A stretch of 17,848 nt of DNA, taken from the UHGV virus genome UHGV-0189394, one strand, 5' to 3'. The notes beneath the pieces are model-generated. The model was given only the letters and a program-made list of their open reading frames with translations, had not been told where the DNA came from and did no database searches. The translations under genes and the position numbers were made by a program. The stretch is from a virus. Shown in pieces: positions 1 to 14,685 of this stretch. Every line of letters begins with the position of its first letter. Positions within the stretch are counted from its first letter, which is position 1.

Positions 1-1421
1 AACGTCTTCTGCCCTATATTCCGGTTAATGCGGGGATCCTGATTGTGCCGTGCAGTCGTGGCGGCTCTGCGTTTACCGACGAAGCGCGTCAGATCGGTAC
101 CTACTCAAAAGAGAATGGTGCAACGGCAGAGTCTTCGCGCTGGGGTGTGGGCAATCCACTGTACATGGATTTAATCGACCGCACCAAAGCGGCTCTGGAC
201 AAAAACCCGAAAAACGTCCTGCTGGCCGTGTACTGGATGCAGGGCGAAGGCGACTGTATGAGCACGGGGTATGAGCAACACCCGACAAAATTTGTGGAGA
301 TGGTGAAACAGTTCCGTGCCGATCTTGCGGCCTATGCCGGTCAGTGTCTGGGGGAGGATGCGGCACGCGTACCGTGGGTGTGCGGCGATACCACCTTCTG
401 GTGGAAAACCGTTTACCCGACGCAGTACGCAACGGTTTACGGCACTTACCGTAATAACAGTGAGCTGAATATTCATTTTGTGCCGTTGATGAAAGACGAG
501 AACGGGGCAAATGTACCGACCAACAACCCGACGGAAGATCCGGATGTGCCGGAAGCAAATTATTACGGTGCTGCATCACGCACAGCTGAAAACTGGACGA
601 ACCCGACACGCGCCATGCATTTCAGTTCCTGGGCCCGTCGCGGCATCCTGCCGGACCGTATTGCGTCTGCCATCCTTGTGCACACAGGCCGCAATGCGCC
701 GTTCCTGGCTGGCGGTGATATCTCTGTGGACTTCCCCGAGCCTGAAGTGACGGAAGGCGAACTGACCACGCTGTACAGCGGCGCAGTGAGCGAAGGTGAT
801 TATCAGGCGCAGGGCTGGAATAAAGAACAGGGGAATGCTGAAGTTGTTCTCGACCCTGACAGCCAGTCATGGCATGCCCTGAAACTCACACAGGACAGTT
901 CACCAACAAAAGACCTGAAGATGAGTCACGCTGTGGCAAATGCGCCAGATTTGCTGAAGAACGGTGGTCGCATCACATTGCGTTTCAAAATCGGTGGCGA
1001 ATACGCCAACAAGAAAATCGCTGTTGCGATGTATCTGCAACTGAGTGAAAGCGCTCTTCAGGGGCTGACGTTCCAGGGACAGGCTGAGGGGACACATCCG
1101 TTCCTGGCTGCCTTCTTCCTTCAGACCGATGAGCAGAAAAAACTCAATCTTATGCACAGTAGCGGCAGCACGTCGAATAAGGTTGCAGGCTTTGGCGTAA
1201 TGAATAGCGAATGGCATACGCTGGAACTGGTGTATCCGGGACAGGGGAAAAACACGGTTATTCCTTATGTTGATTCTGTGAAAGGGCCGGAAACACAGCT
1301 GACATGGGCTAAATTCACCGGTCAGGAGAACACGCTGATCCTGACGGATGCATCCAGCAATGATACCTATGAAGTGCGTATTGACACGTTGACGGTGGAA
1401 GTTAACAAAGCAGCGGCGTAA
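1..1421 (+). CDS. SASA/SGNH-type carbohydrate esterase-like protein (sialate O-acetylesterase / NanS-like), 5'-partial
   Basis: Frame is open from nt 3 to the window edge (the track ORF at 45 starts on GTG with no upstream in-frame stop); stop TAA 1419-1421. Translation has a VYWMQGEGD block and a later MHFS block resembling conserved SASA esterase motifs, followed by a ~250-aa C-terminal domain. The catalytic Ser block would lie upstream of the window. Confidence 0.5.
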   Translation, partial: RLLPYIPVNAGILIVPCSRGGSAFTDEARQIGTYSKENGATAESSRWGVGNPLYMDLIDRTKAALDKNPKNVLLAVYWMQGEGDCMSTGYEQHPTKFVEMVKQFRADLAAYAGQCLGEDAARVPWVCGDTTFWWKTVYPTQYATVYGTYRNNSELNIHFVPLMKDENGANVPTNNPTEDPDVPEANYYGAASRTAENWTNPTRAMHFSSWARRGILPDRIASAILVHTGRNAPFLAGGDISVDFPEPEVTEGELTTLYSGAVSEGDYQAQGWNKEQGNAEVVLDPDSQSWHALKLTQDSSPTKDLKMSHAVANAPDLLKNGGRITLRFKIGGEYANKKIAVAMYLQLSESALQGLTFQGQAEGTHPFLAAFFLQTDEQKKLNLMHSSGSTSNKVAGFGVMNSEWHTLELVYPGQGKNTVIPYVDSVKGPETQLTWAKFTGQENTLILTDASSNDTYEVRIDTLTVEVNKAAA

Positions 1422-1783: not shown

Positions 1784-2254
1784 ATGCTGAAACTGAATTC
1801 ATTCCGCGATGCGTTAACAGCACATTGCCGGTGGTGTAAAGCCAGTCCGGAAAAATTCACGGTATTCATTGAATCCGGCGGCATTGAAACCACCGGAGAA
1901 TCCCCCTCATTCCTGTACCGCTACAATCTGGTGTTGTTCGTCATGGACTTCACCGAAAGCATCGACAACATCATGCTGCCGGTCATGGCGTGGCTGTACA
2001 GGAATCAGCCGGATCTTCTTCTCAATCCGGAGAAAAACAAAAGCATCAAATTTTCGACGGCCATCAACGATGATGACAGCGCTGACATTCTTCTGGAAAT
2101 CCCGGTATGGGAGCGCGTGATTGTACGCCGCAACGATGACGGCACGGTGAGCGCGGAGCATATCGGTGAGCCACCGGTAAGCCGGGCACTGGAAGCGTGG
2201 CGCGTGGTGTTTGAAGACATGACCTGGAAAACCGCAGAAGAGGCCGGTGCATGA
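1784..2254 (+). CDS. R: tail completion protein, P2 gpR-like
   Basis: 156-aa ORF directly upstream of the S-like and V genes; size and sequence character (e.g. MLPVMAWLYRNQPDLLLNPE) match my recollection of the P2 gpR family. Stop overlaps the next start (ATGA). Confidence 0.7.
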   Translation: MLKLNSFRDALTAHCRWCKASPEKFTVFIESGGIETTGESPSFLYRYNLVLFVMDFTESIDNIMLPVMAWLYRNQPDLLLNPEKNKSIKFSTAINDDDSADILLEIPVWERVIVRRNDDGTVSAEHIGEPPVSRALEAWRVVFEDMTWKTAEEAGA

Positions 2255-2886
2255 GAGACGTTCACGAACTGGATGCCATCTTTCAGGACATTCTTTCAGG
2301 CCTGTCAGCTGCCGGAATTCAGCGCACGGCAATGAGCGTGGGTAAGGCCATCCGGCAGGTACAGACAAAACGCATCAGAAGCCAGGTATCCCCGGACGGT
2401 CAGCCCTGGGAGAAACGAAAACGCCGGATACTGCGCATACAAAAAGGCGTGAAGTTCATCTGGAAAGACGGACAGGTAAGAAACCTGAAAAACTGGAGCA
2501 CATCCCGGGGACGGTTCGGGCGGAAAATTACCGGCTACGATACCGACGCCGGGGGTATCCGGACGTTTTACAAGGCAGATATCGAAGACTATCTGGAAAT
2601 TAACACGCAGCGCGTCGCAGCAAGAGCATCACGTCGCTCACCCATGTTCGAAAAACTGAGAACACCGCGCTTTCTGAAAATCACCCCCGACCCGAGCGGC
2701 GTCAGTGTCGGTTTTCAGGGGCGGGCCGCGCGCATTGCCAGAGTGCACCAGTTCGGTGAGGTGAGCCTTGTCTCGCCCGGAAACGCCACGAAATACCCCG
2801 TGCGCGAACTGCTGGGCCTGAACGCTAAAGACAAACAGCAAATCACGGAAACTGTGATTGCCGGACTGGGGAAAGCTGCGAAATGA
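2251..2886 (+). CDS. S: virion morphogenesis / tail completion protein, P2 gpS-like (extended, 211 aa)
   Basis: Contains QVSPDGQPWEKRK, VHQFGE and VRELLGLNAKD blocks resembling gpS-family motifs; about 60 aa longer than P2 gpS as I recall it. Translationally coupled to R and V. Confidence 0.7.
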   Translation: MRDVHELDAIFQDILSGLSAAGIQRTAMSVGKAIRQVQTKRIRSQVSPDGQPWEKRKRRILRIQKGVKFIWKDGQVRNLKNWSTSRGRFGRKITGYDTDAGGIRTFYKADIEDYLEINTQRVAARASRRSPMFEKLRTPRFLKITPDPSGVSVGFQGRAARIARVHQFGEVSLVSPGNATKYPVRELLGLNAKDKQQITETVIAGLGKAAK

Positions 2887-3464
2887 ACATTGAGCTTATG
2901 CGATTGCTGGAAAACATTGTGCGGATTGGTGTGGTCACGGAAATCAACACCGACACCTGGGAGGTTCGGGTGCAGAGTGGCGGACTGACCACCAACTGGA
3001 TCAGATGGAACAGCGGACGGGCCGGAAAATTCAGAATCTGGATCCCGCCATCACCGGGTGAGCAGGTGCTTCTCCTTTGCCCCGGTGGCAATCCGGAAAC
3101 CGCCGTCAGCGCGGGCAGTCTGTACAGTAATGACAATCCACCACCGGGCGCACTGGAAAACGAAATGGTCATCACCGCACCGGACGGTGCGGAATTTCGC
3201 TATAACGCACAGGAAGGCGACCTGACGGCAAAAGGTATCAAAACCGCAACCATTACGGCCAGAACCAGCATCACGCTGGACACGCCAAGGGTGGAATGCA
3301 CGCAGCACCTGAAGGCAAAAACATTCGAGCTGACCGAAGGCGGGAAGATGACCGGCAACATCACGCACACCGGCGGAAGCCTGACCTCCAACGGTATCAC
3401 GGTGCACAGCCACGTACACGGCGGAGTCAGAAGCGGCGGAGACACAAGCGGAGGTCCACAGTGA
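2883..3464 (+). CDS. V: baseplate assembly protein V (central spike)
   Basis: 193-aa product with GEQVLLLCPGGNPETAV, TLDTPRVECT and THTGGSLTSNGITVHSHVH blocks closely resembling P2 gpV; position directly before W. Confidence 0.9.
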   Translation: MNIELMRLLENIVRIGVVTEINTDTWEVRVQSGGLTTNWIRWNSGRAGKFRIWIPPSPGEQVLLLCPGGNPETAVSAGSLYSNDNPPPGALENEMVITAPDGAEFRYNAQEGDLTAKGIKTATITARTSITLDTPRVECTQHLKAKTFELTEGGKMTGNITHTGGSLTSNGITVHSHVHGGVRSGGDTSGGPQ

Positions 3465-3829
3465 GCATTGACTACACCGGCATGAATCCGCACGGCACGG
3501 GAACCATTTCAGGGCACGAACACCTGAAGAACGCCATCAGGGACATCATCATGACACCTGTCGGAACACGCGTCATGAGACGGGACTATGGCAGCCTGGT
3601 TCCCGGACTCATCGACAGCCCGATGAATGATGTAACCCGCCTTCAGTGCATGAGTGCAGCCGTAATAGCAATCAGCCGCTGGGAGCCGCGCGTGGCCGTG
3701 AGCGCCGTTGATGTGGCGTGGGATAAGCAGGGGCGGGCCATGCTGTCCCTGAACTGCCTGATTGTAAACACCATGGAAAAACTGGAGTTTTCTGTAGAGA
3801 TGGGAGGAAAGGCAGATGCCGGCCATTGA
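3461..3829 (+). CDS. W: baseplate wedge protein W (gp25-like)
   Basis: Frame is open from GTG 3461, which overlaps the V stop (GTGA); an alternative ATG lies at 3482. Product has the TPVGTRVMRRDYGSL block characteristic of gpW/gp25-like proteins. Confidence 0.8.
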   Translation: MSIDYTGMNPHGTGTISGHEHLKNAIRDIIMTPVGTRVMRRDYGSLVPGLIDSPMNDVTRLQCMSAAVIAISRWEPRVAVSAVDVAWDKQGRAMLSLNCLIVNTMEKLEFSVEMGGKADAGH

Positions 3830-4712
3830 TTTATCTGAACTGCCAAAACCGAACGTTATCGAAACGCTGGATTACGAGGTGATACTGGCAGAAACAAAGG
3901 CATTTATCGTCAGCCTTTACCCGGCAGAGATACAGGAAGCCGTCACTGCCGCAATGATGCTGGAATCGGAACCCCTGAACATCATTGCCCAGAGCATGGC
4001 TTTCCGTGAGCTTATTATCCGTCAGAGAATTAACGACGCTGCGGGTGCCATTCTGCTGAGCCATGCGGTATCCACAGACCTGGATCATGTTGCCGCGAAC
4101 CTGAACACCGCTCGCCTGGTCATCACACCGGCAACAGAGACCAGTGATGCCGTTATGGAGAGCGACACCGCCCTGCGTCTTCGGGCGCAGTCTGCCTTTG
4201 ACGGGCTAAGTGTCGCCGGTCCAACAGGCGCATATGAATATTTTGCCCGAAGCGTCAGTGGCAGCATTGCCGACGTGAGGGCAACAAGCCCATCCCCAGC
4301 CCAGGTCACCGTGGCGGTATTATCCACAGAAGGCGACGGTACCGCTTCCGAAGACCTGATCGAAAAGGTCAGAACCGCACTGAGTGCGGAGGACGTCAGA
4401 CCAGTGGGAGACAGGCTTACCGTAAAGAGCGCTGAAATCATCAGCTATCAGATCGACGCCAGACTCTACTTTTATCCGGGCCCGGAATCCGAGCCCATTC
4501 TGAATGCAGCCAAAAGCAACCTGGAAGCGTGGATCAGAGAGCAGAGAAAAATTGGTCGCGATGTTGCGCTTTCCGCCATCATGGCCGTCCTGCATGTGCA
4601 GGGCGTTCAGCGGGTGGAGCTGGTGAAGCCACAACAGAACATTACCGTGAGCGATACGCAGTCGGCATATTGCACTTCATTCACCGTCAGCACCGGGGGA
4701 ACCAATGAATAA
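3816..4712 (+). CDS. J: baseplate assembly protein J
   Basis: 298-aa ORF, size and position match P2 gpJ (~302 aa); overlaps W by 14 nt and I by 8 nt. Confidence 0.85.
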   Translation: MPAIDLSELPKPNVIETLDYEVILAETKAFIVSLYPAEIQEAVTAAMMLESEPLNIIAQSMAFRELIIRQRINDAAGAILLSHAVSTDLDHVAANLNTARLVITPATETSDAVMESDTALRLRAQSAFDGLSVAGPTGAYEYFARSVSGSIADVRATSPSPAQVTVAVLSTEGDGTASEDLIEKVRTALSAEDVRPVGDRLTVKSAEIISYQIDARLYFYPGPESEPILNAAKSNLEAWIREQRKIGRDVALSAIMAVLHVQGVQRVELVKPQQNITVSDTQSAYCTSFTVSTGGTNE

Positions 4713-5238
4713 AGACACTCTGCTTCCCCCTTCCGCCACAGAATTCATACGCAACGCAGAGCGTGGCAGTGAGCGGTTGATGGCGCTGCCCGTCGGTATT
4801 CGTCATCTCTGGGATCCTGACACATGTCCCGTGCAGTTGCTGCCTTATCTGGCATGGGCGCTGTCGGTTGACCGATGGGATCAAAACTGGCCGGAGGAAA
4901 CCAAACGGCAGGTCATTCGCGATTCATGGGATATTCACCGGCATAAAGGCACCATCAAAGCCATTCGCCGGGTTGTTGAGCCATTTGGTTATGTGATCAG
5001 GGTAACCGAATGGTGGGAAACCAACGAAACACCGGGAACATTCCGGCTGGATATCGGCGTACTGGATATCGGGATCACCGAAGAAATGTACAGGGAAGTT
5101 GAACGCCTGGTAGCCGACGCACGTCCGGTCAGTCGCCATCTGATCGGTCTGAACATCATTCAGGACGTACCGGGTTACATGTACACAGGCGGCATCGCCT
5201 ACGACGGCGACATTATTACTGTTTATCCTTCGGAGTAG
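4705..5238 (+). CDS. I: tail/baseplate protein I
   Basis: 177-aa ORF between J and the tail-fibre gene, matching P2 gpI size (~176 aa) and position. Confidence 0.85.
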
Positions 5239-5242
5239 CGCT

Positions 5243-8164
5243 ATGACCGTAAAATTCAAAACCGTAATCACTAAGGACGGTGCAGCAAAAATCGCCGCAG
5301 CAACCGGCACACCGGGAACAAAAATCAACATCACGCACATGGCCGTTGGCGATGGCGACGGCAACTTACCCACGCCTTCATCATCCCAGAAAGCGCTCAT
5401 TCGTGAGGTATGGCGAGGCACACCAAACAAAGTAAGCCCCAACCCCAAAAACCCTGCTGAACTCATTGCTGAACTGGTGATCCCTCCTGAAGCGGGAGGA
5501 TTCTGGATGCGTGAAATGGGCTTGTTCGATGAGGCGGGAACGCTGATTGCCGTATCCAACATGGCAGAAACCTACAAACCGCTACTGTCTGAAGGTTCCG
5601 GCAGGGCGATGACATGCCGCATGGTCCTCATCATCAGCGATGTGAGTGCCGTAAACATCTCCGTTGACAACACCACCATCATGGCAACACAGGATTACGT
5701 CGATGACAAAATCGCTGAACATGAACAGTCGCGCCGACATCCCGACGCCACACTGACCCAGAAAGGCTTCACCCAACTGGACAGCTCGGTAAACAGTAGC
5801 AGTGAGGCGAAAGCTGCAACACCAAAAGCAGTAAAAACACTGAACGATACAAAGGCCCCGCTGAACAGCCCTAAGCTGACCGGAACACCGACTGCCCCCA
5901 CGGCAGCAAAAGGGGTCAACAACACCCAGATAGCGACAACCGCTTACGTGATGGCAGCAATCGCTAATTTAGTGGACTCATCACCGGACGCCCTGAATAC
6001 GCTGAACGAGCTGGCGCAGGCGCTGGGAGATGACCCAAACTTTTCAGCCACCATGACCAACGCACTGGCGGGAAAACAGCCCCTTGATGCAACGCTGACG
6101 GCGATTGCCGCGCTGACCACGGCAGCCGATAAACTGCCTTACTTCACCGGAAACGACAAGGCGGCACTGGCAACACTGACGGAAGTTGGCCGGGACATCC
6201 TCGGAAAGGCAGCCGTCAGTGACGTCATCGCGTATCTGGGGCTCACGAACACCATCACCCAGGCATCAGGCGCACTTCAGAAAGCGCAGAACGGAAAAGA
6301 CATCCCGGACACCGAAGCGTTCCTGGAGAACGTCGGCGTCACCAGTCAGACGTTCATGAAACATAATGGAGAACTGCCTGAAGAGGCTGACCTGAATACC
6401 TATGGCCCGGTTGCTGCCACTCTGGGCACGTGGGGGAAAGCAACGTCAACCAATGCAACGATCGCTAAAAATTTCCCGGAAGACGGTGCGGTGGGCTTTC
6501 TCGAAGTCTTTACTGGAGGAGCTTTTAACGGAACGCAGCGATACACCTGCCGTAACGGTGGAATTTATATCCGGACCCTGACCGCCAGATGGAACGGAAA
6601 AGATGGCCCATGGAGCGCATGGCGTAACGTTCAGATGACCAGCAGAACCCTGAGTCAGGATATTGATCTTGACACCCTGGGGGGAACCGAACATCTGGGG
6701 GTATGGCGTAACGCAGGCGCAGCCAATGCTTCATTCACCAGAAACTACCCGGAAGAAGGTAGTTATGCCCAGGGCGTTCTTGAGGTTATGGAAGGTGGCA
6801 GCTATTCACGCACCCAGCGGTACACTACAGCCAAAGGGAATATGTACATCCGCAGCCTGGCTGCAACATGGGATGCATCTGCCCCGAAGTGGGGAGAATG
6901 GAATAGCGTCGGACATCAACCTGACGGCGCATGGCACGATGGCGACCTGAACACCATGAAAACGCCGGGTATTTACAGCACGACCAACAAGGCCAAAAAC
7001 GGCCCTATGACGGTTACGGACGGGGATAACCTGACAGGGGTCCTTGAGGTCATAAAACGACTGAGTGGTACCGCCTTTATACAGCGCTATACCACCACAG
7101 GAACGGCGACATTAACACGCGGACGTTCTTTTGAAAGAACCTTCAGCGGTGAAGCCTGGACAGAATGGCGGGAAATCTATAACTCGTTCAGCCTGCCGCA
7201 GAATCTGGGCATCGGTGGCGCAGTGGCAAAACTATCCAGTCTGGACTGGCAGACCTACGACTTTGTGCCGGGCAGTCTGATAACCGTGCGGCTTGATAAC
7301 ATGACCAACATTCCCGACGGTATGGACTGGGGCGTCATTGATGGCAACCTGATAAACATCGCGGTTGGTCCGAGTGATGATTCCGGTACGGGGCGCTCAA
7401 TGCATGTATGGCGCAGCACTGTGAGTAAAGCGAATTACCGCTTTTTTATGGTGCGTATTTCAGGAAATCCGGGAAGCCGCACGATCACAACAAGACGAGT
7501 ACCAATCATTGACGAAGCCCAGACATGGGGCGCGAAACAGACATTCAGTGCTGGCCTTTCAGGTGAATTATCCGGCAACGCCTCCACTGCAACAAAATTA
7601 AAAACCGGGCGTAAGATTAACGGCGTCACGTTTGATGGCACCGCCAATATAGAGGCATTCCCTCCGGGGGTTCCCTTACCATGGCCATCAGACACCCCGC
7701 CTTCAGGCTATGCCATTATGCAGGGGCAAACCTTCGACAAGGCAAAATACCCGAAACTTGCCATCGCCTACCCGTCAGGAAAACTGCCTGATATGCGGGG
7801 ATGGACAATCAAAGGGAAACCAGCCAGCGGTCGGGCGGTATTATCACAGGAGCAGGACGGTATTAAATCGCATACCCATACGGCCAGCGTATCAAATACC
7901 GATCTGGGGTCGAAAACGACCAGTTCATCAGGCTCAGGATCAGGCACCGCATCAGTAATACAGGGGACAGCATCCCCTGAAGGTAGCGGAGACTGGACGG
8001 CGTACGGTCCAGGAAGTGGGTCAACAATTACTGTAACTATGCCCAGTCACACCCACACCGTGGCACTGGGCTCACACGGGCACGGCGTGACCGTTAACGC
8101 CACAGGCAACACAGAAAACACCGTGAAAAATATTGCGTTTAACTACATCGTGAGGCTTGCATAA
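5243..8164 (+). CDS. H: tail fibre protein (mosaic: P2 gpH-like N-terminus, repeat-containing shaft, lambda Stf / Mu S-like receptor-binding tip)
   Basis: 973-aa ORF with GGAG 8 nt upstream. N-terminal ~150 aa is P2 H-like; C-terminus has GWTIKGK...HTHTA...[16 protein letters not shown]...[12 protein letters not shown], resembling the conserved tip of lambda Stf-type side tail fibres. Confidence 0.9.
6388..7183 (+). repeat. three tandem protein-level repeats (~85-90 aa each) inside the tail-fibre gene
   Basis: Units begin near nt 6388 (DLNTYGP...[29 protein letters not shown]...W..W), 6659 (DIDLDTLGG...[29 protein letters not shown]...W..W) and 6939 ([11 protein letters not shown]...GVLEVIKRL...QRYTTTG...W..W). 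Nucleotide sequences have diverged; unit boundaries are approximate. Confidence 0.6.
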
Positions 8165-8910
8165 TGACCTTTACAATGAAAGACGAAGCCAGAACGCTAC
8201 GGGTATTTCATATTCACCCGGAAACCAGCGAACTGACCGGCGAAAGCGACGTATATATTCCACCGCATACCGGGCTGCCCGCTGGTTGCACAACTACCGA
8301 ACCGCCACATATCCCGGAAGGGTTCGCGGCACTTTTTGATGAGGTTCGCCAGCGCTGGGAACTCGCCGAAGATCACCGGGGGAAAGTGGTGTGGGAGACA
8401 ACATCCGGGAATGAAATCACAATAACTGAAATCGGACCGCTGCCTGAAAACACAACAACCGTGGCCCCGCCAACAGCCGCAGGAAAGTTTATTGATGGCG
8501 AATGGAAAGAAGATCGCAGTCTGGCAATCAGTATAAAAAATAACGAGATAAACGAATGGCGTAACGCCATGGAATCTGCAAATTACGTTTTCACGTTCAA
8601 TGGCCGCAACTGGGATTACGGAAAAGAAACCCAGTCCCGACTGGAACCATCAGTGGCAGCCGCAAAGTCCGGGTTATTACCGGAGGGATTTTTCTGGACG
8701 GATGCCGATAACAACGATATCCCGGTTACCGCAGATGAATTGATCGCACTGAGCAATGCTGCATCTGCTGCAATGTTTACCAAAGGAATGGAAATACATA
8801 TCCGGCAACGGGAAATGAAAAAAGCCATAGAGGAATTACAGGACCCCGGAGAAATCATGGCATACCCGGTGGGATGGAAAACAGACACCGCAGAAGGTGA
8901 CGACGAGTGA
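8164..8910 (+). CDS. tfa: tail fibre assembly protein / chaperone (lambda Tfa-like N-terminal domain, non-canonical C-terminal domain)
   Basis: Start overlaps the H stop (TAATGA). N-terminal ~100 aa (GESDVYIPPHTGLPAG, EDHRGKVVWETTSGNEITITEIGPLPEN) closely resembles lambda Tfa; the C-terminal ~140 aa does not resemble the usual Tfa C-terminus as I recall it. Confidence 0.75.
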   Translation: MTFTMKDEARTLRVFHIHPETSELTGESDVYIPPHTGLPAGCTTTEPPHIPEGFAALFDEVRQRWELAEDHRGKVVWETTSGNEITITEIGPLPENTTTVAPPTAAGKFIDGEWKEDRSLAISIKNNEINEWRNAMESANYVFTFNGRNWDYGKETQSRLEPSVAAAKSGLLPEGFFWTDADNNDIPVTADELIALSNAASAAMFTKGMEIHIRQREMKKAIEELQDPGEIMAYPVGWKTDTAEGDDE

Positions 8911-8915
8911 AAGTT

Positions 8916-8942
8916 AAAACGCCCGACTGACGGGCGTTTTTA
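8916..8942. terminator. bidirectional rho-independent terminator between convergent tfa and U
   Basis: aaaa-ACGCCCG-actga-CGGGCGT-ttttt: GC-rich 7-bp stem flanked by an A tract on one side and a T tract on the other, lying between the tfa stop (8910) and the U stop (8943). Confidence 0.8.
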
Positions 8943-9416
8943 TTATCTTACCAGTGTCAGTGCAGAGCTGACGCCGGACTTGATATTATTTGTCAGATCC
9001 CCCAGAGATGAAGACTGAAGGCGCTCACGCAAATCTTCATTCACACGCTCAAAGGTCACCGTAAACTCAATCTTCCGGGCCTTGCCATAGCGATCAAGCT
9101 CTGAGCGCGTGGTATTCAGCGCGGTGATAACGTACATACCGTAAATCTGACCAACACCATCAATCAGCGGCCAGGGACGCCCCGCATACGCCTGAGTTGT
9201 CAGCGCCGTGAGCGAGACTTCACCGCCTGTTATTTCCGGGTAGAGAAGACCGGAAAGCGTGATGGTATCGTCCCCCGCACCGATATACTGCCAGCTTGCC
9301 GAGCGGTTGATCCGCTCGTTCTTCACATGACGCCAGTTACGGGACTGCTGTATCTGCTGGTGTGGCAGCGTGCTTAACTGAAAAACAAACATGCCGTAAA
9401 TCATCATCATAACCAT
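8943..9416 (-). CDS. U: tail protein U
   Basis: Product (..MMMIYGMFVFQLSTLPHQQ...WPLIDGVGQIYGMYVI...KIEFTVTFERV) resembles P2 gpU. The track ORF starts at GTG 9419; I place the start at ATG 9416, but ATGs at 9410-9404 are equally possible (AGGAG lies just upstream). Confidence 0.8.
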   Translation of the reverse strand: MVMMMIYGMFVFQLSTLPHQQIQQSRNWRHVKNERINRSASWQYIGAGDDTITLSGLLYPEITGGEVSLTALTTQAYAGRPWPLIDGVGQIYGMYVITALNTTRSELDRYGKARKIEFTVTFERVNEDLRERLQSSSLGDLTNNIKSGVSSALTLVR

Positions 9417-9421
9417 CACTC

Positions 9422-12307
9422 CTAATCACGATCGCGGAAGCTGTTCATACCGCCGACTTGTCTGCGAATTTCTTCCCGTACCGCCTCCCCCACCATTCTG
9501 GCAAGGTCGCGCGGATTCTGCGTAACCACGTTATGAAGGTGAACGTGAATTTCCCCATCAAACACAGGCGACGGCGCAGGAGCAGATGCACGCGATGCAG
9601 CACCCGATGATGGAGAAACCGGTGCCCACTGCTTAACCTCCACAGGACGGGAAGTATCCGGGGAAACAACCGGAGACACGGGTGAAAGCGCTGGCACAGG
9701 CGGAAGTACGGGGGCAACAGTCGGTTCATTCCACTGCCCACGAACGGCCAGCGCGCGGGGGAGATTTTTAAACACGATATCGCCGGGGCCGATACGCTTA
9801 CGGGCTTCCTGAAGCATACCCGACGTATTGCCTTCGATACCCTTGAGCCTGCGAAGAACGCCACTGGTACCGTCATTTATTCCCGGAGGATTACCACCTT
9901 TGGGATCCACGCCCCCCGTATTACCGCCAGCCACCGGTTTGCCCTTCCCTGCGTTATCACTGGTGGCAGATTCAGCCATACTGGGGGACCATGCCTTCTG
10001 AACCATTTTTTTCTGAACAGGGTCCCACTCCCACATAACCGGAGCCTTTGCAACTGCCTCAGCACGATTTTTCGCCCGCTCAACTTCAGAGGGGAGCACG
10101 CCGAGTTTTTCCAGCACCCATGCCAGGCCGTCCATCAGAGCCTGAAGAGGAGTAAGCGCAAGCGATATCGCCCCGCTGAGCACGCGACCAAAAGTTTCCC
10201 CGGCCGATGTACACCGTTCAAGAGATTCATTACTGGCCTGAACCGGCGTGAGCAACCGGGTAAACCAGTCGAACACCGTGGACACCGCACCCGATACCAG
10301 ATCAAACAGCGGCGCAAACTGAGCAATACTTTCACGAACAGGCGCAAGGCCAGCCCACAGCGCCCGGAATGTGCCGAGCATGAAGGCCTTAACCTGTTCC
10401 CAGTGACGCCATATGAGCAGCGCCCCACCGGCAAGGGCAGCAATCACGAGACCAACAGGACTGAGAAGACCGGCAAGCGCCCCGCCCAGCACCGAAAACG
10501 CACCGGATACCATCCCCCACAGTGCCGGAAGTCCGGACAGGCGAAGGACAAGACCACTGACGCCGGTTGCAACGGAGGAAAGTCCGCCACCAAGAAGCGC
10601 AGAGCCAAGCTGAAGTTTTGCAAAAACCCCCGTCAGCAATCCACCACCGACAGACAGCGCGCCTATGGCCGTTGTGGCCGCAAGCACGCCCCCCACGGTA
10701 AGGGTCAGTGTGCGTACAAGCTGTGGGTTTTCCTGAATCCACGACCTGAAACGTTCGCCCACAGAAGCAACAGCCTGTACAAGCTCGCGGATATCATCAG
10801 TAACCAGCGACACAACATCACTGCGTATACCGGAGAAGACGCCAGACAGACGATCGGCATCACCGCCGAGGTTATCCCGCAGGACATCCCCCATTCGCCG
10901 GGCGGTTCCCTGAACCTGTCCCATACGGTCTGATACCGTTGCCAGCGAGCGGAGAAAATCCGGGATCTGGTCAACGGCAAGATCTTCAATGGGTGTGCCG
11001 AACAGCGCTATCGCCGCATTAGCCCGTTCTGCCGGATCCTGAATCTTCAGCAGCCCGGCAGCCGTTCGCTGCATTGCCTCGCGTGCAGCTGCGCCTCCGC
11101 TGGCAATCGCTGACGACATTCTTTCAGCGTTAAGGCCAATCAGCTCATAGGCCTCAACGCTTGCTTTGGACATATCCGAGCCGCGAATACTGAATTCCTT
11201 GACGGCATCGCCGGTTTTATCCAGGGCGAATTTTCCCTGCTGTGCCATGCTGACAAGCAGCGTCATGGTTTCAGAGCCGGAAAGCCCCATATTGCGGAAG
11301 TGCGTGGAATACTCATGCAGAATTTCAGGAAGTTCAGCGCGCATTTCGGCAGACATTTTCTGCATCCCTGCCGCCATCAGGTCGACCGCCTCCCCGGCAT
11401 TTGCGGCAAGCCCGTTTTTCAGCATGATTCCGGCAGCCTGAACCTGTTCAGCCACACTACCGCCGGTGACCTGAGCAAGATCCAGCGCCTGACGTGTCAC
11501 CCGTTCGAGCTCTTCAGTCCCCACCGTACCCAGTGCGCCAAGCGTGCTTTGCGTCGCAGCTGCCGCCTCTGAAATCATTGCGATATCCGTTGCGACACCT
11601 GACGCCCGGATATTCTGAATCATCCGGCTGTAGCGCTGCCCGTCCTCCGCACTGCCGCCACTCTGTGCCGCAATAAGCGCGCCCTGCCGTTGCTCTTCAA
11701 CAACAGGCGCAACCGCATGTCCGGCGGCGTACAGACCAGCACTGCCCGCCGCCATGGCAACCGCTCCGCGCTGGCTGAGTTTACCGGCGATATCCTGAAC
11801 ACGATCGTAACGTTGCTGTGCCTGCGTGACGCGCGCAAGCTGAGCCTGCTGGCGTTCAAGCTGATCGTTGTATTCCTGCGTTCGCCTGATTGCTTCCTCC
11901 ACAGCGCGGTTACTTCCGTCAGCCCGTATGCCGTGAGCTTCCAGTTCGCGACCGGCCTCCCGTAATCGGGACTGGTGAAGGGAGTACACAGTATTAAGGC
12001 GCTCAACCTTTGCGGTCAGCGCCCTGAGAGTTTCCTGCTGCTTTTCCGTCAGTGCTGTGCCGGTGCGCTGTGCTTCCTGAAGGCGCTGAAGTCGCGCACG
12101 CGCATCATTCAGACTGTTTTCAGTCGAAGCGACCTGCTGACGGGCACGGGAAAACGCATCACTGCTTCGCTGGAGTGACTTAAGCGCGTTCTGTGTGGAC
12201 GAAAGGGATTCAGAAAGCGCGCCGGTCATTTCCCGGGCGCGCCTGACAGGTTGGGTGAGACGGTCGACCGCAGTGAGGGCTACACGTATCTGGAGATTAT
12301 TACTCAT
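9422..12307 (-). CDS. T: tail tape measure protein T
   Basis: Long ORF between E/E' and U with an Ala/Gly-rich hydrophobic central region typical of tape measure proteins. Start placed at ATG 12307-12305 (MSNNLQ...), which overlaps the E' stop; the track's GTG at 12361 would lie inside E'. Confidence 0.85.
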   Translation of the reverse strand: MSNNLQIRVALTAVDRLTQPVRRAREMTGALSESLSSTQNALKSLQRSSDAFSRARQQVASTENSLNDARARLQRLQEAQRTGTALTEKQQETLRALTAKVERLNTVYSLHQSRLREAGRELEAHGIRADGSNRAVEEAIRRTQEYNDQLERQQAQLARVTQAQQRYDRVQDIAGKLSQRGAVAMAAGSAGLYAAGHAVAPVVEEQRQGALIAAQSGGSAEDGQRYSRMIQNIRASGVATDIAMISEAAAATQSTLGALGTVGTEELERVTRQALDLAQVTGGSVAEQVQAAGIMLKNGLAANAGEAVDLMAAGMQKMSAEMRAELPEILHEYSTHFRNMGLSGSETMTLLVSMAQQGKFALDKTGDAVKEFSIRGSDMSKASVEAYELIGLNAERMSSAIASGGAAAREAMQRTAAGLLKIQDPAERANAAIALFGTPIEDLAVDQIPDFLRSLATVSDRMGQVQGTARRMGDVLRDNLGGDADRLSGVFSGIRSDVVSLVTDDIRELVQAVASVGERFRSWIQENPQLVRTLTLTVGGVLAATTAIGALSVGGGLLTGVFAKLQLGSALLGGGLSSVATGVSGLVLRLSGLPALWGMVSGAFSVLGGALAGLLSPVGLVIAALAGGALLIWRHWEQVKAFMLGTFRALWAGLAPVRESIAQFAPLFDLVSGAVSTVFDWFTRLLTPVQASNESLERCTSAGETFGRVLSGAISLALTPLQALMDGLAWVLEKLGVLPSEVERAKNRAEAVAKAPVMWEWDPVQKKMVQKAWSPSMAESATSDNAGKGKPVAGGNTGGVDPKGGNPPGINDGTSGVLRRLKGIEGNTSGMLQEARKRIGPGDIVFKNLPRALAVRGQWNEPTVAPVLPPVPALSPVSPVVSPDTSRPVEVKQWAPVSPSSGAASRASAPAPSPVFDGEIHVHLHNVVTQNPRDLARMVGEAVREEIRRQVGGMNSFRDRD

Positions 12308-12847
12308 CGTTATGATTCCCGGTTCTGGCAGCCGCCCGCTCTCGCCAGGCAACAACCTCACCAGGACTCATACCGAATATCTCTGCGGGCGACCAGTTAA
12401 AGACAACAGCGATATCAGCGACAAGCTCTTCGATATCGTCAAACAGGAGACGAATTACATCACACCTGTATTCGTCTTTTTCTTGCCGGGCAAGGCCTTC
12501 GGCGAGAAAAAATACGTTGCCGCCGTGGAAAGCGCCCCGAAATCCTCCGTGCGCATGGTCGACAGTTCCGCTTCAGTAAGGCGGGGCTCTGTAACACGAG
12601 CGAGATAAACGCACATCGCGTTAAAGTTCAGGCTGTACAGGTGAGCCAGAGACAGACCACGCAGCGAACCACTCTGACGGGCACGCTCGCCAATCTTCAC
12701 ATGTGTAATAATCTGTTCGCCACGGATGACCGGGTTTGTTAATTCAATGAGCTCACCGTTATAGGCAACCTCATTACCATCAGCAGCATCGAAGTCGTCG
12801 ACGTTATCAGCACCGACAACCGGCATTTCGTTTTGTTTTTTTGACAT
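12300..12847 (-). CDS. tail assembly chaperone E+E' (predicted -1 programmed frameshift product)
   Basis: Slippery heptamer T TTT TTC on the - strand (12512-12506) at codons 112-114 of E. Hand translation of the -1 frame from 12506 gives a 68-codon extension (LAEGLARQEKDEYRCDVIRLLFDDIEELVADIAVVFNWSPAEIFGMSPGEVVAWRERAAARTGNHNDE) ending TAA 12302-12300, overlapping the T start. Confidence 0.6.
12455..12847 (-). CDS. E: tail assembly chaperone E
   Basis: 130-aa ORF with AGGAG 9 nt upstream of ATG 12847; sits between FII and T as in P2 and contains a slippery run near its 3' end. Confidence 0.8.
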   Translation of the reverse strand: MSKKQNEMPVVGADNVDDFDAADGNEVAYNGELIELTNPVIRGEQIITHVKIGERARQSGSLRGLSLAHLYSLNFNAMCVYLARVTEPRLTEAELSTMRTEDFGALSTAATYFFSPKALPGKKKTNTGVM

Positions 12848-12892
12848 TGTGAAATTCTCCTGGCGGCCACACGACCGCCGTCAGTCAGTTAA

Positions 12893-13405
12893 TCAGCCAA
12901 GCCCCAGCATGGAGCGGGTGCGGTCAGGCAACACATCCTTGCCATCAACGCGCCAGATGAAGTTCAGCACGTCGATTTCAATAACATCGCTGTTATCAAC
13001 GCTGAGCTTGTACCAGGTGCATTTCATCGCGTAGGTATGTTCGGTATCCTCACCCTGTTTGGCTTCGCCCTTGTCGATTTCGACAATGCGCCCACGGGCT
13101 TCAATATCGACGTACTCAATACCCTCTTCGGAATAGTATTCACCCGAGAAGCGCACACGTACCGCATCAATGCCTGCGGCATATTTGGCAAAGATGTGAC
13201 GGTCCACGCCGCCAACCGCAAAGGAGAGATCCAGCGCACCGTCATCAAGCCCGAGATCCACCGCCGCAGAGCCTGGCATACCCGCACCGCGATACGCTTC
13301 AGTCTTGCGGGTCAGCTTGGGCGGAGTGAAGGAGGTCACCTTACCCAGCTTGTTGTCACCGTCCACAAAGACGGTAAACACACGAAGTTTTTTTGGCACG
13401 GCCAT
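12893..13405 (-). CDS. FII: tail tube protein FII
   Basis: 170-aa ORF (P2 FII ~172 aa); its start overlaps the FI stop (TGATG). Confidence 0.9.
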   Translation of the reverse strand: MAVPKKLRVFTVFVDGDNKLGKVTSFTPPKLTRKTEAYRGAGMPGSAAVDLGLDDGALDLSFAVGGVDRHIFAKYAAGIDAVRVRFSGEYYSEEGIEYVDIEARGRIVEIDKGEAKQGEDTEHTYAMKCTWYKLSVDNSDVIEIDVLNFIWRVDGKDVLPDRTRSMLGLG

Positions 13406-14610
13406 CAGTTACCCCCTCCCAGAGATGCAAAAGCAGAACTGAAGAACTCGTCAGTAAACGTCTGATAGAGTTCCATGCACTCCATAGGCGGAACAGGGGT
13501 GTATTTGTAGCGAATACGCACAATACCCTGACGAAGGCTGGTTGTGTCGTTGTCGATGATATCGAACCAGCATTCCGCCCCGATAAGTTTTCCGGCCGTG
13601 ACCAGCGCATCCAGTTTTGCCTTGATAGCGCTTACCGCATCCTTCGCGTTGGCTGGCGTCAACGGTGAATCCACCACCTGAAGCTGTGCCTCTGCGATAC
13701 CGTCAGCCAGTTGTTGCGCCGTACGGGTGTACACCTCAAAGATATACTCCGCCGTTTCCGGCGTACGGTTCCCCCAGAAACGGAAGGAGCCGTCACCCTG
13801 GTGAATAATCGTCGTCACCTCACTGCTGTTCAGCGTGTTGGCATCGCTGTTTTCATCCTGAAGCGACCAGGAAACCGACGCAGAGATCCCGAGAACATTC
13901 TTCACAGGGATGTTTGAAAGAGAGCGATGCCAGCCCTGTTCGTGGTCGATTCGGGCACGAAGACCGCACGCATACGCCGCAGCCGGGAAAGTTTCGCTTT
14001 TACCGGATGCAGGGTTGAACGCCGTGAAATCAGGCCACAGAAGCATGATTTCACGCCCGGAAATCTTTTTGCGGAATGCAATGGCATCGGACGGTTTTGT
14101 ACATGCCGGGCAGCCGGAATACGCAAAAGCGCGCATTTTGCCCGCAATCGTCACCAGTGCCGCCGTAACGGCCTCGGACTCAAGACCGGGTGCCGCCAGG
14201 ATACGCGGACGACAGCCAATCCCTTCCATCTGTTCAGCAACCAGAAGAGCCTGCATCCCCGTGTAACTGCCATCAGCCTCCACGGTACCAATAACAAGCT
14301 GGTCCTGATTCTTCCCTCCCTCGGTGTCTTCCTCCTCTTTGGCTTCAGCGACACGCACGACGATAACGCGCGTGCTGACCTGATCGGAGATAGCCTTAAG
14401 AGATTTGTAGAGCGTCCCCTTTGTGCCAGCCTTACCCAGAACATTATTGACTCGTGTTAACAGCACCGGCGTGTCAAGCGGGAACTGCTCTTCATCAGCA
14501 TCATCTGCAACAGCAATAATCCCAATGACACTGGAATCAACGTCATTAATTGCCGTCACCAGATCGGTGTTTTCCCTGACGCGCACACCGTGAAATCGCG
14601 TTTCAGCCAT
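13405..14610 (-). CDS. FI: contractile tail sheath protein FI
   Basis: ~400-aa ORF resembling P2 gpFI. Start placed at ATG 14610 (MAETRFHGVRV..., GGTGA 5 nt upstream) rather than the track's ATG 14622, which has no RBS. Confidence 0.9.
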   Translation of the reverse strand: MAETRFHGVRVRENTDLVTAINDVDSSVIGIIAVADDADEEQFPLDTPVLLTRVNNVLGKAGTKGTLYKSLKAISDQVSTRVIVVRVAEAKEEEDTEGGKNQDQLVIGTVEADGSYTGMQALLVAEQMEGIGCRPRILAAPGLESEAVTAALVTIAGKMRAFAYSGCPACTKPSDAIAFRKKISGREIMLLWPDFTAFNPASGKSETFPAAAYACGLRARIDHEQGWHRSLSNIPVKNVLGISASVSWSLQDENSDANTLNSSEVTTIIHQGDGSFRFWGNRTPETAEYIFEVYTRTAQQLADGIAEAQLQVVDSPLTPANAKDAVSAIKAKLDALVTAGKLIGAECWFDIIDNDTTSLRQGIVRIRYKYTPVPPMECMELYQTFTDEFFSSAFASLGGGN

Positions 14611-14685
14611 ACGATTCACCATCAGTTATGTTTAAGCTCGCCTGAATAATCCACTACTGGCGCGCAGCCTTCACGTGATGCGGGT

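What the first reader, a model, noticed from the sequence alone, without database searches (positions are those of the whole stretch)
5243..8164. Mosaic tail fibre: P2 H-like anchor, three tandem ~85-aa repeats, Stf/Mu-S-type His-rich tip
The N-terminus is P2 H-like and the last ~250 aa carry the Stf-type tip ([27 protein letters not shown]), indicating horizontal exchange of the receptor-binding module. The three internal repeats (6388-7183), each with a GxLEV...QRYT...YIR core and conserved Trp spacing, look like a repeated beta-rich shaft or knob domain; repeat number could vary and tune fibre length.
Basis: partly seen in the sequence, partly recalled or inferred. Interest (0 to 1): 0.4.

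Follow-up and report, generated by a model that had tools for sequence, protein, structure and literature searches.

The report
Mosaic P2-type prophage tail fibre
This is the tail-fibre gene of a P2-like prophage of E. coli, assembled from known modules (P2 anchor, three pyocin-type knob domains, a short T4 gp37/lambda Stf-type metal-binding tip, matching chaperone); it is a clear but ordinary example of how phages swap host-recognition parts.

Summary
The 973-aa ORF (5243-8164, +) is real and is an exact match to RefSeq WP_097334421.1, "phage tail protein [E. coli]". It follows gpI in a P2-type R-S-V-W-J-I-H operon.

- aa 1-347: 62% identical to P2 gpH.
- aa 376-649: three tandem ~90-aa units. 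Units 1 and 2 are clearly related (z=29). Unit 3 is diverged but significant.
- aa 655-770: a conserved domain of unresolved fold.
- aa 795-973: the collar and needle of T4 gp37 (PDB 2XGF, E 6e-52) and lambda Stf (47% identity). It does not match Mu S.
- The needle is short, with 3 HxH motifs against 7 in T4 and 8 in lambda.
- The downstream gene is a lambda Tfa/T4 gp38-type chaperone with a DUF4376 C-terminus.

The three-knob block is a fixed cassette in 222 of 228 matching phage records, both P2-like and T-even gp37. So knob number does not vary among close relatives, although it ranges from 1 to 6 in the wider family. Among close relatives, length varies in the needle instead. The finding is ordinary: a new member of a known kind.

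The parts
5243..8164 (+). Tail fibre gene (gpH position), 973 aa; identical to WP_097334421.1
   Evidence: ORF. Exact-sequence lookup. Encoded on 16 contigs in the same gene context.
5243..6283 (+). P2 gpH-like N-terminal part (aa 1-347): baseplate-attachment domain (Pfam Phage_tail_fib, aa 1-151), one Phage_fiber_2 repeat (aa 170-202) and proximal shaft
   Evidence: E 4e-51; 62% identity to P2 H 1-394, with one 47-aa fibre-repeat copy fewer than P2.
6068..6367 (+). Shaft segment aa 276-375. From aa 276 the protein is collinear with aa 15-530 of a T-even gp37 (WilhelmHis/Bas35). aa 271-333 also match the first 63 aa of lambda orf-314 (Stf C-half)
   Evidence: 51% identity, E 1e-164 over aa 276-792. 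(68% identity over aa 271-333).
6368..6646 (+). Knob unit 1 (aa 376-468)
   Evidence: Model pLDDT 70-88. Fold matches.
6650..6922 (+). Knob unit 2 (aa 470-560)
6929..7189 (+). Knob unit 3 (aa 563-649), diverged copy
   Evidence: Non-circular HMM test. Same strand pattern in the model.
7205..7552 (+). Post-knob domain (aa 655-770), conserved in P2-like fibres and T-even gp37; fold unresolved; not a knob
   Evidence: 97% identical to Peduovirus P24B2 and 59% to WilhelmHis gp37. ~91% nucleotide identity to Peduovirus and Yersinia P2-like phages. hhalign against the knob profile is negative. AF2 pLDDT 30-44.
7553..7642 (+). Generic fibre shaft motif (aa 771-800, '[31 protein letters not shown]'); likely recombination joint
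   Evidence: Many unrelated fibre fragments match only this stretch.
7643..7852 (+). Collar domain (aa 801-870; Pfam Collar aa 809-856)
   Evidence: E 5e-11. (2XGF); 67% identical to T4 gp37, 77% to lambda Stf.
7853..8161 (+). Short gp37/Stf-type needle and tip (aa 871-973) with three HxH motifs at nt 7871-7879, 8048-8056 and 8075-8083. The centre (aa ~895-935, nt 7925-8047) is lineage-specific and is the probable receptor-contacting end
   Evidence: Centre differs completely from the SCU-172 fibre. Centre absent from 5,426 complete E. coli genomes. Paired needle indels in cluster members.
8164..8910 (+). Tail-fibre assembly chaperone, 248 aa. N-terminal ~120 aa are lambda Tfa/T4 gp38-type. 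C-terminus is DUF4376
   Evidence: DUF4376, E 3e-18. (45% to lambda Tfa 1-117). (34% to T4 gp38, 48% to the P24A7b Tfa, none to P2 G or Mu U). (Caudo_TAP_N + DUF4376).
8916..8940 (.). Hairpin terminator (10-bp stem, 6 GC pairs) ending the fibre operon, between convergent operons

Best explanation
This is the gpH-position tail fibre of a P2-family (Peduoviridae-like) prophage of E. coli. It is a homotrimeric host-recognition fibre built from exchangeable modules.

Modules, from N- to C-terminus:
1. A P2 H-type N-terminal domain that plugs the fibre into the gpJ/gpI baseplate wedge.
2. A shaft.
3. A fixed cassette of three tandem pyocin-type knob domains followed by a fourth conserved domain. 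The same ~520-aa block forms the N-proximal half of gp37 in some T-even phages.
4. A collar and a short needle of the T4 gp37/lambda Stf type. In this type, HxH motifs from the three chains are expected to coordinate metal ions, and the far end of the needle contacts the receptor.

The gene immediately downstream encodes a Tfa/gp38-type chaperone that would fold the tip.

Shown here: the domain assignments, the homologies, the gene context and the pattern of variation.

Inferred: trimerisation, metal binding, chaperone dependence, and that the lineage-specific centre of the tip (aa ~895-935) sets host range. The knobs may give secondary, possibly carbohydrate, contacts as proposed for pyocin Knob2. 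The receptor itself is unknown.
For: Context: R, S, V, W, J and I precede the gene, and the chaperone follows it. The closest complete-genome relative, the E. coli SCU-172 prophage, has the full P2-type head, lysis and tail gene set.

Anchor.

Knobs:
- NCBI names the homologues 'pyocin knob domain-containing protein'.
- AF2 pLDDT is 70-88 over aa 371-646, with the same beta-strand pattern in each unit.
- Foldseek: 6CL5 R1 pyocin fibre E 4e-7, prob 1.00; also phi812, phi11 and P68.
- This is the same set that Buth et al. 2018 (PMC6116203) recovered with the pyocin knobs, whose size is 83-84 aa.

Tip:
- 2XGF, E 6e-52.
- Lambda orf-314, E 8e-63.
- T4 gp37 810-1026, 51% identity.
- HxH motifs 3, against 7 in T4, where seven iron atoms line the needle and the 932-959 tip subdomain binds LPS and OmpC (PMC6957217).

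Chaperone. DUF4376 chaperones are experimentally required for the Alteromonas phage V22 fibre (PMC7289586, PMC10579305).

Precedent for the architecture working: engineered P2 gpH N-terminus fused to a T-even gp37 C-terminus is functional on P2 particles (PMC9594776).
Against: - No experiment here shows that the prophage is inducible or that the fibre is assembled.
- The needle is much shorter than any characterised gp37/Stf tip. T4 residues 908-970, including the receptor-binding tip subdomain, have no counterpart. So metal stoichiometry and the receptor cannot be transferred from T4.
- The structure model is a monomer. Fold-search rmsd values are large (9-24 A) because the relative orientation of the knobs is arbitrary. 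No per-knob superposition was possible.
- Sequence-only support for the pyocin knob is weak (profile vs 6CL5 E 0.32; vs 9B45 E 0.006).
- The fold of aa 655-770 is unresolved.
Confidence: 0.88

Rival explanations
1. One reading: the three internal repeats are a variable-number array whose copy number changes between homologous prophages and tunes fibre length.
For: Across distant proteins that carry the unit, copy number does differ. Among the 150 best representatives the counts are 1 unit in 32 proteins, 2 in 49, 3 in 50, 4 in 14, 5 in 4 and 6 in 1. A knob duplication between related Alteromonas phage fibres is published (PMC10579305).
Against: - All five fetched fibres with this cassette have exactly three units in the same order: SCU-172, P24B2, P24A7b, WilhelmHis gp37, and even the 36%-identical Rahnella fibre.
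- 222 of 228 phage records cover at least 80% of the three-unit block.
- The units are 24-40% identical to each other with no DNA-level repeat. Slippage or unequal crossing-over between them is therefore not favoured.
- All 11 full-length members of the 90% cluster keep three units. Their length differences map to the needle.
Confidence: 0.1
2. The receptor-binding tip is of the Mu S / P2 H type and is served by a Mu U / P2 G-type chaperone.
Against: There is no alignment of Mu S or P2 H to aa 348-973. The chaperone has no similarity to P2 G or Mu U. The tip matches gp37 and Stf instead.
Confidence: 0.02
3. The short tip is a deletion remnant. The fibre would be a decaying gene of a cryptic prophage and would no longer bind a receptor.
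For: It has only 3 HxH motifs against 5-8 in the four fibres compared. The region equivalent to the T4 tip subdomain is missing. This tip centre is absent from all 5,426 complete E. coli genomes.
Against: - The ORF is intact, and the identical protein occurs on 16 contigs from different samples.
- The longer variants in the same cluster differ by two matched insertions, 10 aa on the outbound strand and 9 aa on the return strand, which keep the hairpin-like needle in register. The same tip centre is retained, with a few point substitutions. That pattern is what selection for a folded needle would give.
- All neighbouring tail genes and the chaperone are intact.
Confidence: 0.07

Closest known systems
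Tail fibre of Peduovirus P24A7b (LR595887 / NC_049390) and its Tfa
   Same: Same overall architecture in a sequenced P2-like phage: P2 H anchor, three knob units, post-knob domain, collar and gp37/Stf-type needle. Window aa 237-973 align to aa 101-874 at 55% identity. Its chaperone shares the N-terminal 119 aa at 48% identity.
   Different: P24A7b lacks about 137 aa of proximal shaft. It has 6 HxH motifs against 3 here and a different tip centre. Its chaperone is 192 aa of the TfaP/TfaQ type without DUF4376.
Bacteriophage P2 gpH / gpG
   Same: Same gene position. aa 1-347 are 62% identical to P2 H 1-394. Same baseplate neighbours V, W, J and I.
   Different: Everything distal to aa 347 differs. 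P2 H has no knob units, no collar and no HxH needle. P2 G is unrelated to the chaperone here.
T4 gp37 distal tip (PDB 2XGF) with gp38; lambda Stf with Tfa
   Same: Collar and needle are homologous: 51% identity to T4 gp37 810-1026 and 47% to lambda orf-314 59-314. The C-terminal '[18 protein letters not shown]' is identical in T4 gp37; lambda has '[18 protein letters not shown]', and the last 12 residues are identical in all three. HxH motifs are present. The chaperone N-domain is homologous to Tfa and gp38.
   Different: The needle is much shorter: 3 HxH against 7 in T4 and 8 in lambda. The T4 receptor-binding tip subdomain (932-959) has no counterpart. The chaperone C-terminus is DUF4376.
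gp37 of T2/T6-type T-even phages (e.g. Escherichia phage WilhelmHis, Bas35)
   Same: aa 276-792 (shaft, three knobs, post-knob domain) are collinear with gp37 aa 15-530 at 51% identity, E 1e-164. It has three knob units.
   Different: There the distal end carries a gp38 adhesin instead of a gp37-type needle. The N-terminus joins gp36, not a P2 baseplate.
R-type pyocin fibres of P. aeruginosa (PDB 6CL5, 6CL6, 6CU2) and other knob-bearing RBPs (phi11 gp45, phage K gp144, AS12 gp42, T4 gp34)
   Different: Pyocins have two knobs, an iron-containing shaft and a lectin-like foot. This fibre has three knobs, an extra domain and a gp37-type needle. Sequence similarity is marginal.

Membership tests
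P2 gpH-type tail fibre (Pfam PF12571 N-terminal domain family) | N-terminal baseplate-attachment domain homologous to P2 H | tested here: met
   PF12571 aa 1-151, E 4e-51, 173 bits against a cut-off of 23. 62% identity to P2 H over aa 1-347.
P2 gpH-type tail fibre (Pfam PF12571 N-terminal domain family) | Encoded directly after gpJ and gpI in the baseplate operon | tested here: met
   Baseplate_J at 3816-4712 and Tail_P2_I at 4705-5238 immediately upstream.
P2 gpH-type tail fibre (Pfam PF12571 N-terminal domain family) | P2 H / Mu S-type C-terminal receptor-binding half with a gpG/U-type chaperone | tested here: not met
   No alignment beyond aa 347. The chaperone is unrelated to P2 G and Mu U. 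The protein is therefore a member by its anchor only.
Pyocin-type knob domain | ~83-aa domain with a five- or six-stranded antiparallel beta-sheet fold, as in R1/R2 pyocin Knob1 and Knob2 (PMC6116203) | tested here: met
Pyocin-type knob domain | Occurs in tandem within a trimeric fibre or spike | tested here: met
   Three units in tandem. Median spacing of 97 aa between unit starts in 150 family members.
Pyocin-type knob domain | Detectable sequence relationship to solved knob domains | tested here: inconclusive
   Unit profile against the PDB: 9B45 gp47 fibre E 0.006; 6CL5 E 0.32. Pfam and NCBIfam give no hit. The NCBI protein name for homologues is 'pyocin knob domain-containing'.
Pyocin-type knob domain | Three chains pack their sheets around the fibre axis to form the trimeric knob | not testable with these tools
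   Only monomer prediction was available.
T4 gp37 / lambda Stf-type collar-and-needle tip | Collar domain (Pfam PF07484) | tested here: met
   aa 809-856, E 5e-11. 67% identical to T4 and 77% to lambda over aa 801-870.
T4 gp37 / lambda Stf-type collar-and-needle tip | HxH motifs on both strands of the needle and the conserved C-terminal end | tested here: met
   HTH 877, HTH 936, HGH 945. The C-terminal 18 aa are identical to T4 gp37; lambda Stf differs at one of them (A for T). phmmer against 2XGF gives E 6e-52.
T4 gp37 / lambda Stf-type collar-and-needle tip | Iron ions coordinated by the HxH motifs of three chains | not testable with these tools
   Inferred from T4 (PMC6957217). Needs metal analysis or a structure.
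T4 gp37 / lambda Stf-type collar-and-needle tip | T4-like distal tip subdomain (gp37 932-959) with its LPS/OmpC-binding residues | tested here: not met
   gp37 ~908-970 has no counterpart. The centre aa ~895-935 aligns with none of T4, lambda, P24A7b or SCU-172.
T4 gp37 / lambda Stf-type collar-and-needle tip | Adjacent gp38/Tfa-type chaperone gene | tested here: met
   The ORF at 8164-8910 starts at the last base of the fibre's stop codon. 45% identity to lambda Tfa 1-117 and 34% to T4 gp38 1-127.
Mu S-type tip | C-terminal domain homologous to Mu S (PDB 8JU3) | tested here: not met
   Only shaft motifs match.
Tfa (Caudo_TAP) tail-fibre assembly proteins | N-terminal Tfa domain plus the Tfa C-terminal domain | tested here: inconclusive
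   The N-domain is met (Caudo_TAP_N). The C-terminal half is DUF4376 instead of the lambda Tfa C-terminus.

The most novel reading that the evidence does not exclude
This fibre may carry the shortest natural gp37/Stf-type needle. It has three HxH sites and a unique ~40-aa end, and it is served by a hybrid chaperone (Tfa/gp38 N-domain fused to a DUF4376 'cap' domain). Natural variants in its own 90% cluster add exactly one rung to both strands of the needle (+10 aa and +9 aa, one extra HxH). If the short form is functional, it would define the minimal folding unit of this widespread tip. It would also show that needle length is adjusted in paired steps, which is useful as a small scaffold for engineering host range.
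Probability: 0.3. Interest if true: 0.35.

Novelty: new member of a known kind. Interest (0 to 1): 0.22.

Why it matters
It matters little for basic biology. The gene is already in RefSeq as a phage tail protein, each module has characterised relatives, and the same architecture exists in a sequenced Peduovirus. Its value is practical and illustrative:
- It is a natural P2-anchor/gp37-type chimera that mirrors engineered P2:gp37 fibres.
- It shows that one ~520-aa knob-containing block is shared between temperate P2-like phages and virulent T-even phages.
- Its very short needle and hybrid chaperone could serve as compact parts for retargeting P2 particles or R-type tailocins.

Tried and rejected
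- DNA-level tandem repeat search (TRF) found nothing in the repeat region.
- BLASTP of the protein against itself reported only the diagonal. Smith-Waterman with shuffling was needed.
- NCBIfam gave no hit for the fibre, the repeat region or the chaperone.
With the single protein, the genome-contig scan returned only three distant loci (Rahnella, Pseudomonas MAG, Aeromonas), so it could not give a census of repeat number in genomes. I used the phage collection and the representative-protein search instead.
- Fourth-knob hypothesis for aa 655-770: rejected by hhalign, which matched only the 10-residue tail of unit 3.
- Structure of aa 655-770: two attempts gave low confidence (pLDDT ~30, 44). 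The available homologues are nearly identical or fragmentary. I did not run a fold search on that model.
- Search for the tip centre (nt 7925-8047) in complete E. coli genomes: no match.
- 'His box' literature was not found in the held library. The statement that conserved His motifs in gp37 act as recombination sites (Tetart et al., J Mol Biol 1998) rests on my own recollection and was not verified here.
- An invertible alternative-tip cassette of the Mu G-segment type was considered and rejected. Only 33 bases, occupied by a terminator, separate the chaperone from gpU, and no invertase is present in the window.
Full report
OBSERVATION. Window 5243-8164 (+) is one ORF of 973 aa. It is identical to RefSeq WP_097334421.1, "phage tail protein [Escherichia coli]". 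It sits in a 90% cluster of 13 sequences, of which the 11 full-length members are 972-992 aa. The same protein is encoded on 16 contigs, always in the same gene context. So the window is an E. coli prophage. It is present in draft assemblies, and only two of 5,426 complete E. coli genomes have a full-length relative, at 84.5% nucleotide identity.

CONTEXT. Upstream on the same strand lie P2 gpR, gpS, gpV (spike), gpW, gpJ and gpI homologues. Downstream there is a 248-aa ORF whose start overlaps the fibre's stop codon by one base, and then a strong hairpin terminator at 8916-8940. After that come gpU, the tape-measure protein, gpE, the tube and the sheath on the opposite strand, followed by gpD and Ogr on the plus strand. 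The closest complete-genome relative is a prophage next to serS in E. coli SCU-172. It has the same layout and a full P2-type head and lysis gene set. The ORF therefore occupies the gpH (tail fibre) position of a P2-family prophage.

N-TERMINUS. Pfam finds the tail-collar-fibre N-terminal domain at aa 1-151 (E 4e-51) and one Phage_fiber_2 repeat at aa 170-202. BLASTP against P2 gpH aligns aa 1-347 with P2 H 1-394 at 62% identity (E 2e-144), with one 47-aa fibre-repeat copy fewer than P2. Nothing aligns beyond that point. The "P2 H-like anchor" is confirmed.

THE REPEATS. There is no DNA-level tandem repeat. At protein level, units 1 and 2 give a Smith-Waterman score of 183 against a shuffle mean of 29 (z = 29). 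Unit 3 against either gives z = 5.6. A unit alignment that includes homologues has invariant columns G20, G43, E46, V47, Q57, R58, T60, W82 and W85. An HMM places the units at aa 376-468, 470-560 and 563-649. An HMM built without any unit-3-type sequence still detects unit 3, with 14.8 bits and i-E 1.4e-6. The best of 2000 shuffles scored 13.9. So there are three units: two clear and one diverged.

WHAT THE UNITS ARE. Database homologues of the region are named "pyocin knob domain-containing protein" by NCBI. An AlphaFold2 model of aa 371-800 is confident over aa 371-646 (pLDDT about 70-88) and shows the same series of beta-strands in each unit.
- Foldseek against the PDB returns the phi812 receptor-binding protein (E 4e-8), the R1 pyocin fibre 6CL5 (E 4e-7, probability 1.00), phi11 gp45, the P68 fibre, AS12 gp42 and the Pa193 fibre.
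- This is essentially the list that Buth et al. 2018 obtained when they searched with the pyocin Knob1 and Knob2 domains. Those domains are 83-84 aa and consist of five- or six-stranded antiparallel sheets (PMC6116203).
- Caveats: the model is a monomer, so rmsd values over two knobs are large. Sequence-only links to solved knobs are weak (E 0.006 to 9B45, 0.32 to 6CL5).

I conclude that the units are pyocin-type knob domains.

DOES THE NUMBER VARY? Five fetched fibres carry the module, and each has exactly three units: SCU-172, Peduovirus P24B2, Peduovirus P24A7b, WilhelmHis gp37 and a 36%-identical Rahnella fibre. A tblastn search of the three-unit block against 50,697 phage records finds 228 records, and 222 of them cover at least 80% of it. 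They include P2-like phages (60-63% identity) and T-even phages (about 58%), where the block lies in gp37. All 11 full-length members of the protein's own cluster also keep three units. So the three knobs behave as one fixed cassette.

In the wider family the unit is common, with 1,031 representative proteins at E <= 0.001. Among the best 150, the counts are 1 unit in 32 proteins, 2 in 49, 3 in 50, 4 in 14, 5 in 4 and 6 in 1, with a median spacing of 97 aa. A one-knob versus two-knob difference between related Alteromonas phage fibres is already published (PMC10579305).

POST-KNOB DOMAIN. aa 655-770 are conserved in the same fibres: 97% identical to P24B2, 73% to P24A7b and 59% to WilhelmHis gp37. 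The segment shows no profile similarity to the knob unit. Two modelling attempts stayed at low confidence because the available homologues are nearly identical or fragmentary. Its fold and role are unresolved. The flanking knobs are only 57-67% identical to P24B2, and the segment is about 91% identical in DNA to many P2-like phages. This points to a recent exchange of this module alone.

THE TIP. phmmer against PDB sequences matches aa 802-973 to the T4 gp37 receptor-binding fragment 2XGF (E 6e-52), in two pieces with a gap in the middle. T4 gp37 810-1026 aligns at 51% identity. Lambda orf-314, the C-terminal half of Stf, aligns to aa 795-973 at 47% identity with 77 gap positions. Its first 63 aa also match aa 271-333 at 68%. 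Relative to Stf, then, aa 334-794 (knobs and post-knob domain) are an insertion between shaft and collar. Mu S matches only shaft motifs and nothing in the tip, so the "Mu-S-type" label is wrong.

HxH motifs number 3 here (877, 936, 945), 5 in SCU-172, 6 in P24A7b, 7 in T4 and 8 in lambda Stf. In T4, seven iron atoms line the needle, and the 932-959 tip subdomain binds LPS and OmpC (PMC6957217). T4 residues ~908-970 have no counterpart here. The centre of this tip (aa ~895-935) aligns with none of the four fibres it was compared with and is absent from all complete E. coli genomes. Within the protein's own cluster, the 991-992-aa forms carry two matched insertions: KTTSTFDHGT on the outbound strand and GIGAHSHTM, with one extra HxH, on the return strand. 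The same tip centre is kept, with a few point substitutions. So among close relatives, length varies in the needle, in paired steps.

CHAPERONE. The 248-aa product of 8164-8910 is 45% identical to lambda Tfa over aa 1-117. It is 34% identical to T4 gp38 and 48% to the P24A7b Tfa, and it has no similarity to P2 G or Mu U. Precomputed Pfam calls it Caudo_TAP_N plus DUF4376. DUF4376 is the domain of the Alteromonas phage V22 and A5 fibre chaperones, of which V22 gp27 is required for active fibre (PMC7289586, PMC10579305). The tip and the chaperone N-domain are thus of matching type, as expected if the receptor-binding module moved together with its chaperone.

MECHANISM.
- Shown: the module map, the homologies and the variation pattern.
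- Inferred from the named families: the protein trimerises. The N-domain binds the baseplate. The knobs stack along the axis and may make secondary sugar contacts, as proposed for pyocin Knob2. The chaperone nucleates folding from the C-terminus. The three HxH layers bind metal. The lineage-specific end of the needle contacts the receptor and sets host range.
- The receptor cannot be named.
- Engineered P2 gpH:gp37 chimeras work on P2 particles (PMC9594776), so the architecture is plausible as a functional fibre.

VERDICT. The gene is annotated in RefSeq, every module has characterised relatives, and the same architecture exists in a sequenced Peduovirus (P24A7b). It is a new member of a known kind and of modest interest.

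Noticed in passing
window 8943-14622 (minus strand) versus 1784-8910 (plus strand): The sheath, tube, gpE, tape-measure and gpU genes are inverted relative to the R-S-V-W-J-I-H operon, so the two tail operons converge on one hairpin terminator (8916-8940). In P2 all these genes run in one direction. The E. coli SCU-172 prophage next to serS has the same inverted layout.
   Followed up: partly
window 45-1421 (+), start probably cut by the window edge: A large gene between the lysis genes and gpR encodes a SASA-type carbohydrate (sialate O-acetyl) esterase domain plus DUF6645 (phrog_143, function unknown). It is 645 aa in SCU-172 and has no counterpart at this position in P2. It could be a virion-associated or lysogenic-conversion enzyme acting on surface sugars.
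   Followed up: no
window 8164-8910 (+): The fibre chaperone is a hybrid. It has a lambda Tfa/T4 gp38-type N-domain fused to a DUF4376 C-domain, which is otherwise known from the Alteromonas phage V22 and A5 fibre chaperones described as transient 'caps'.
   Followed up: partly
window ~7910-7915 and ~8060-8065 (after aa 890 and aa 939 of the fibre): The 991-992-aa variants in the same 90% protein cluster carry paired insertions, KTTSTFDHGT and GIGAHSHTM. These add one rung and one HxH motif to both strands of the needle, while the tip centre is kept apart from substitutions at three positions (I915R/M, G917A, A929V).
   Followed up: partly
window 7205-7552 (aa 655-770): This conserved domain is 97% identical to Peduovirus P24B2 while the adjacent knobs are 57-67% identical, which indicates a recent exchange of that single module. 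Its fold could not be modelled. T4 gp37 gives a weak local match to it, with 21% of residues identical.
   Followed up: partly
P0061 (1300-aa representative protein): One distant fibre-like protein carries two separate three-knob cassettes (aa 217-483 and 720-985). This suggests that the triple block can be duplicated as a whole.
   Followed up: no
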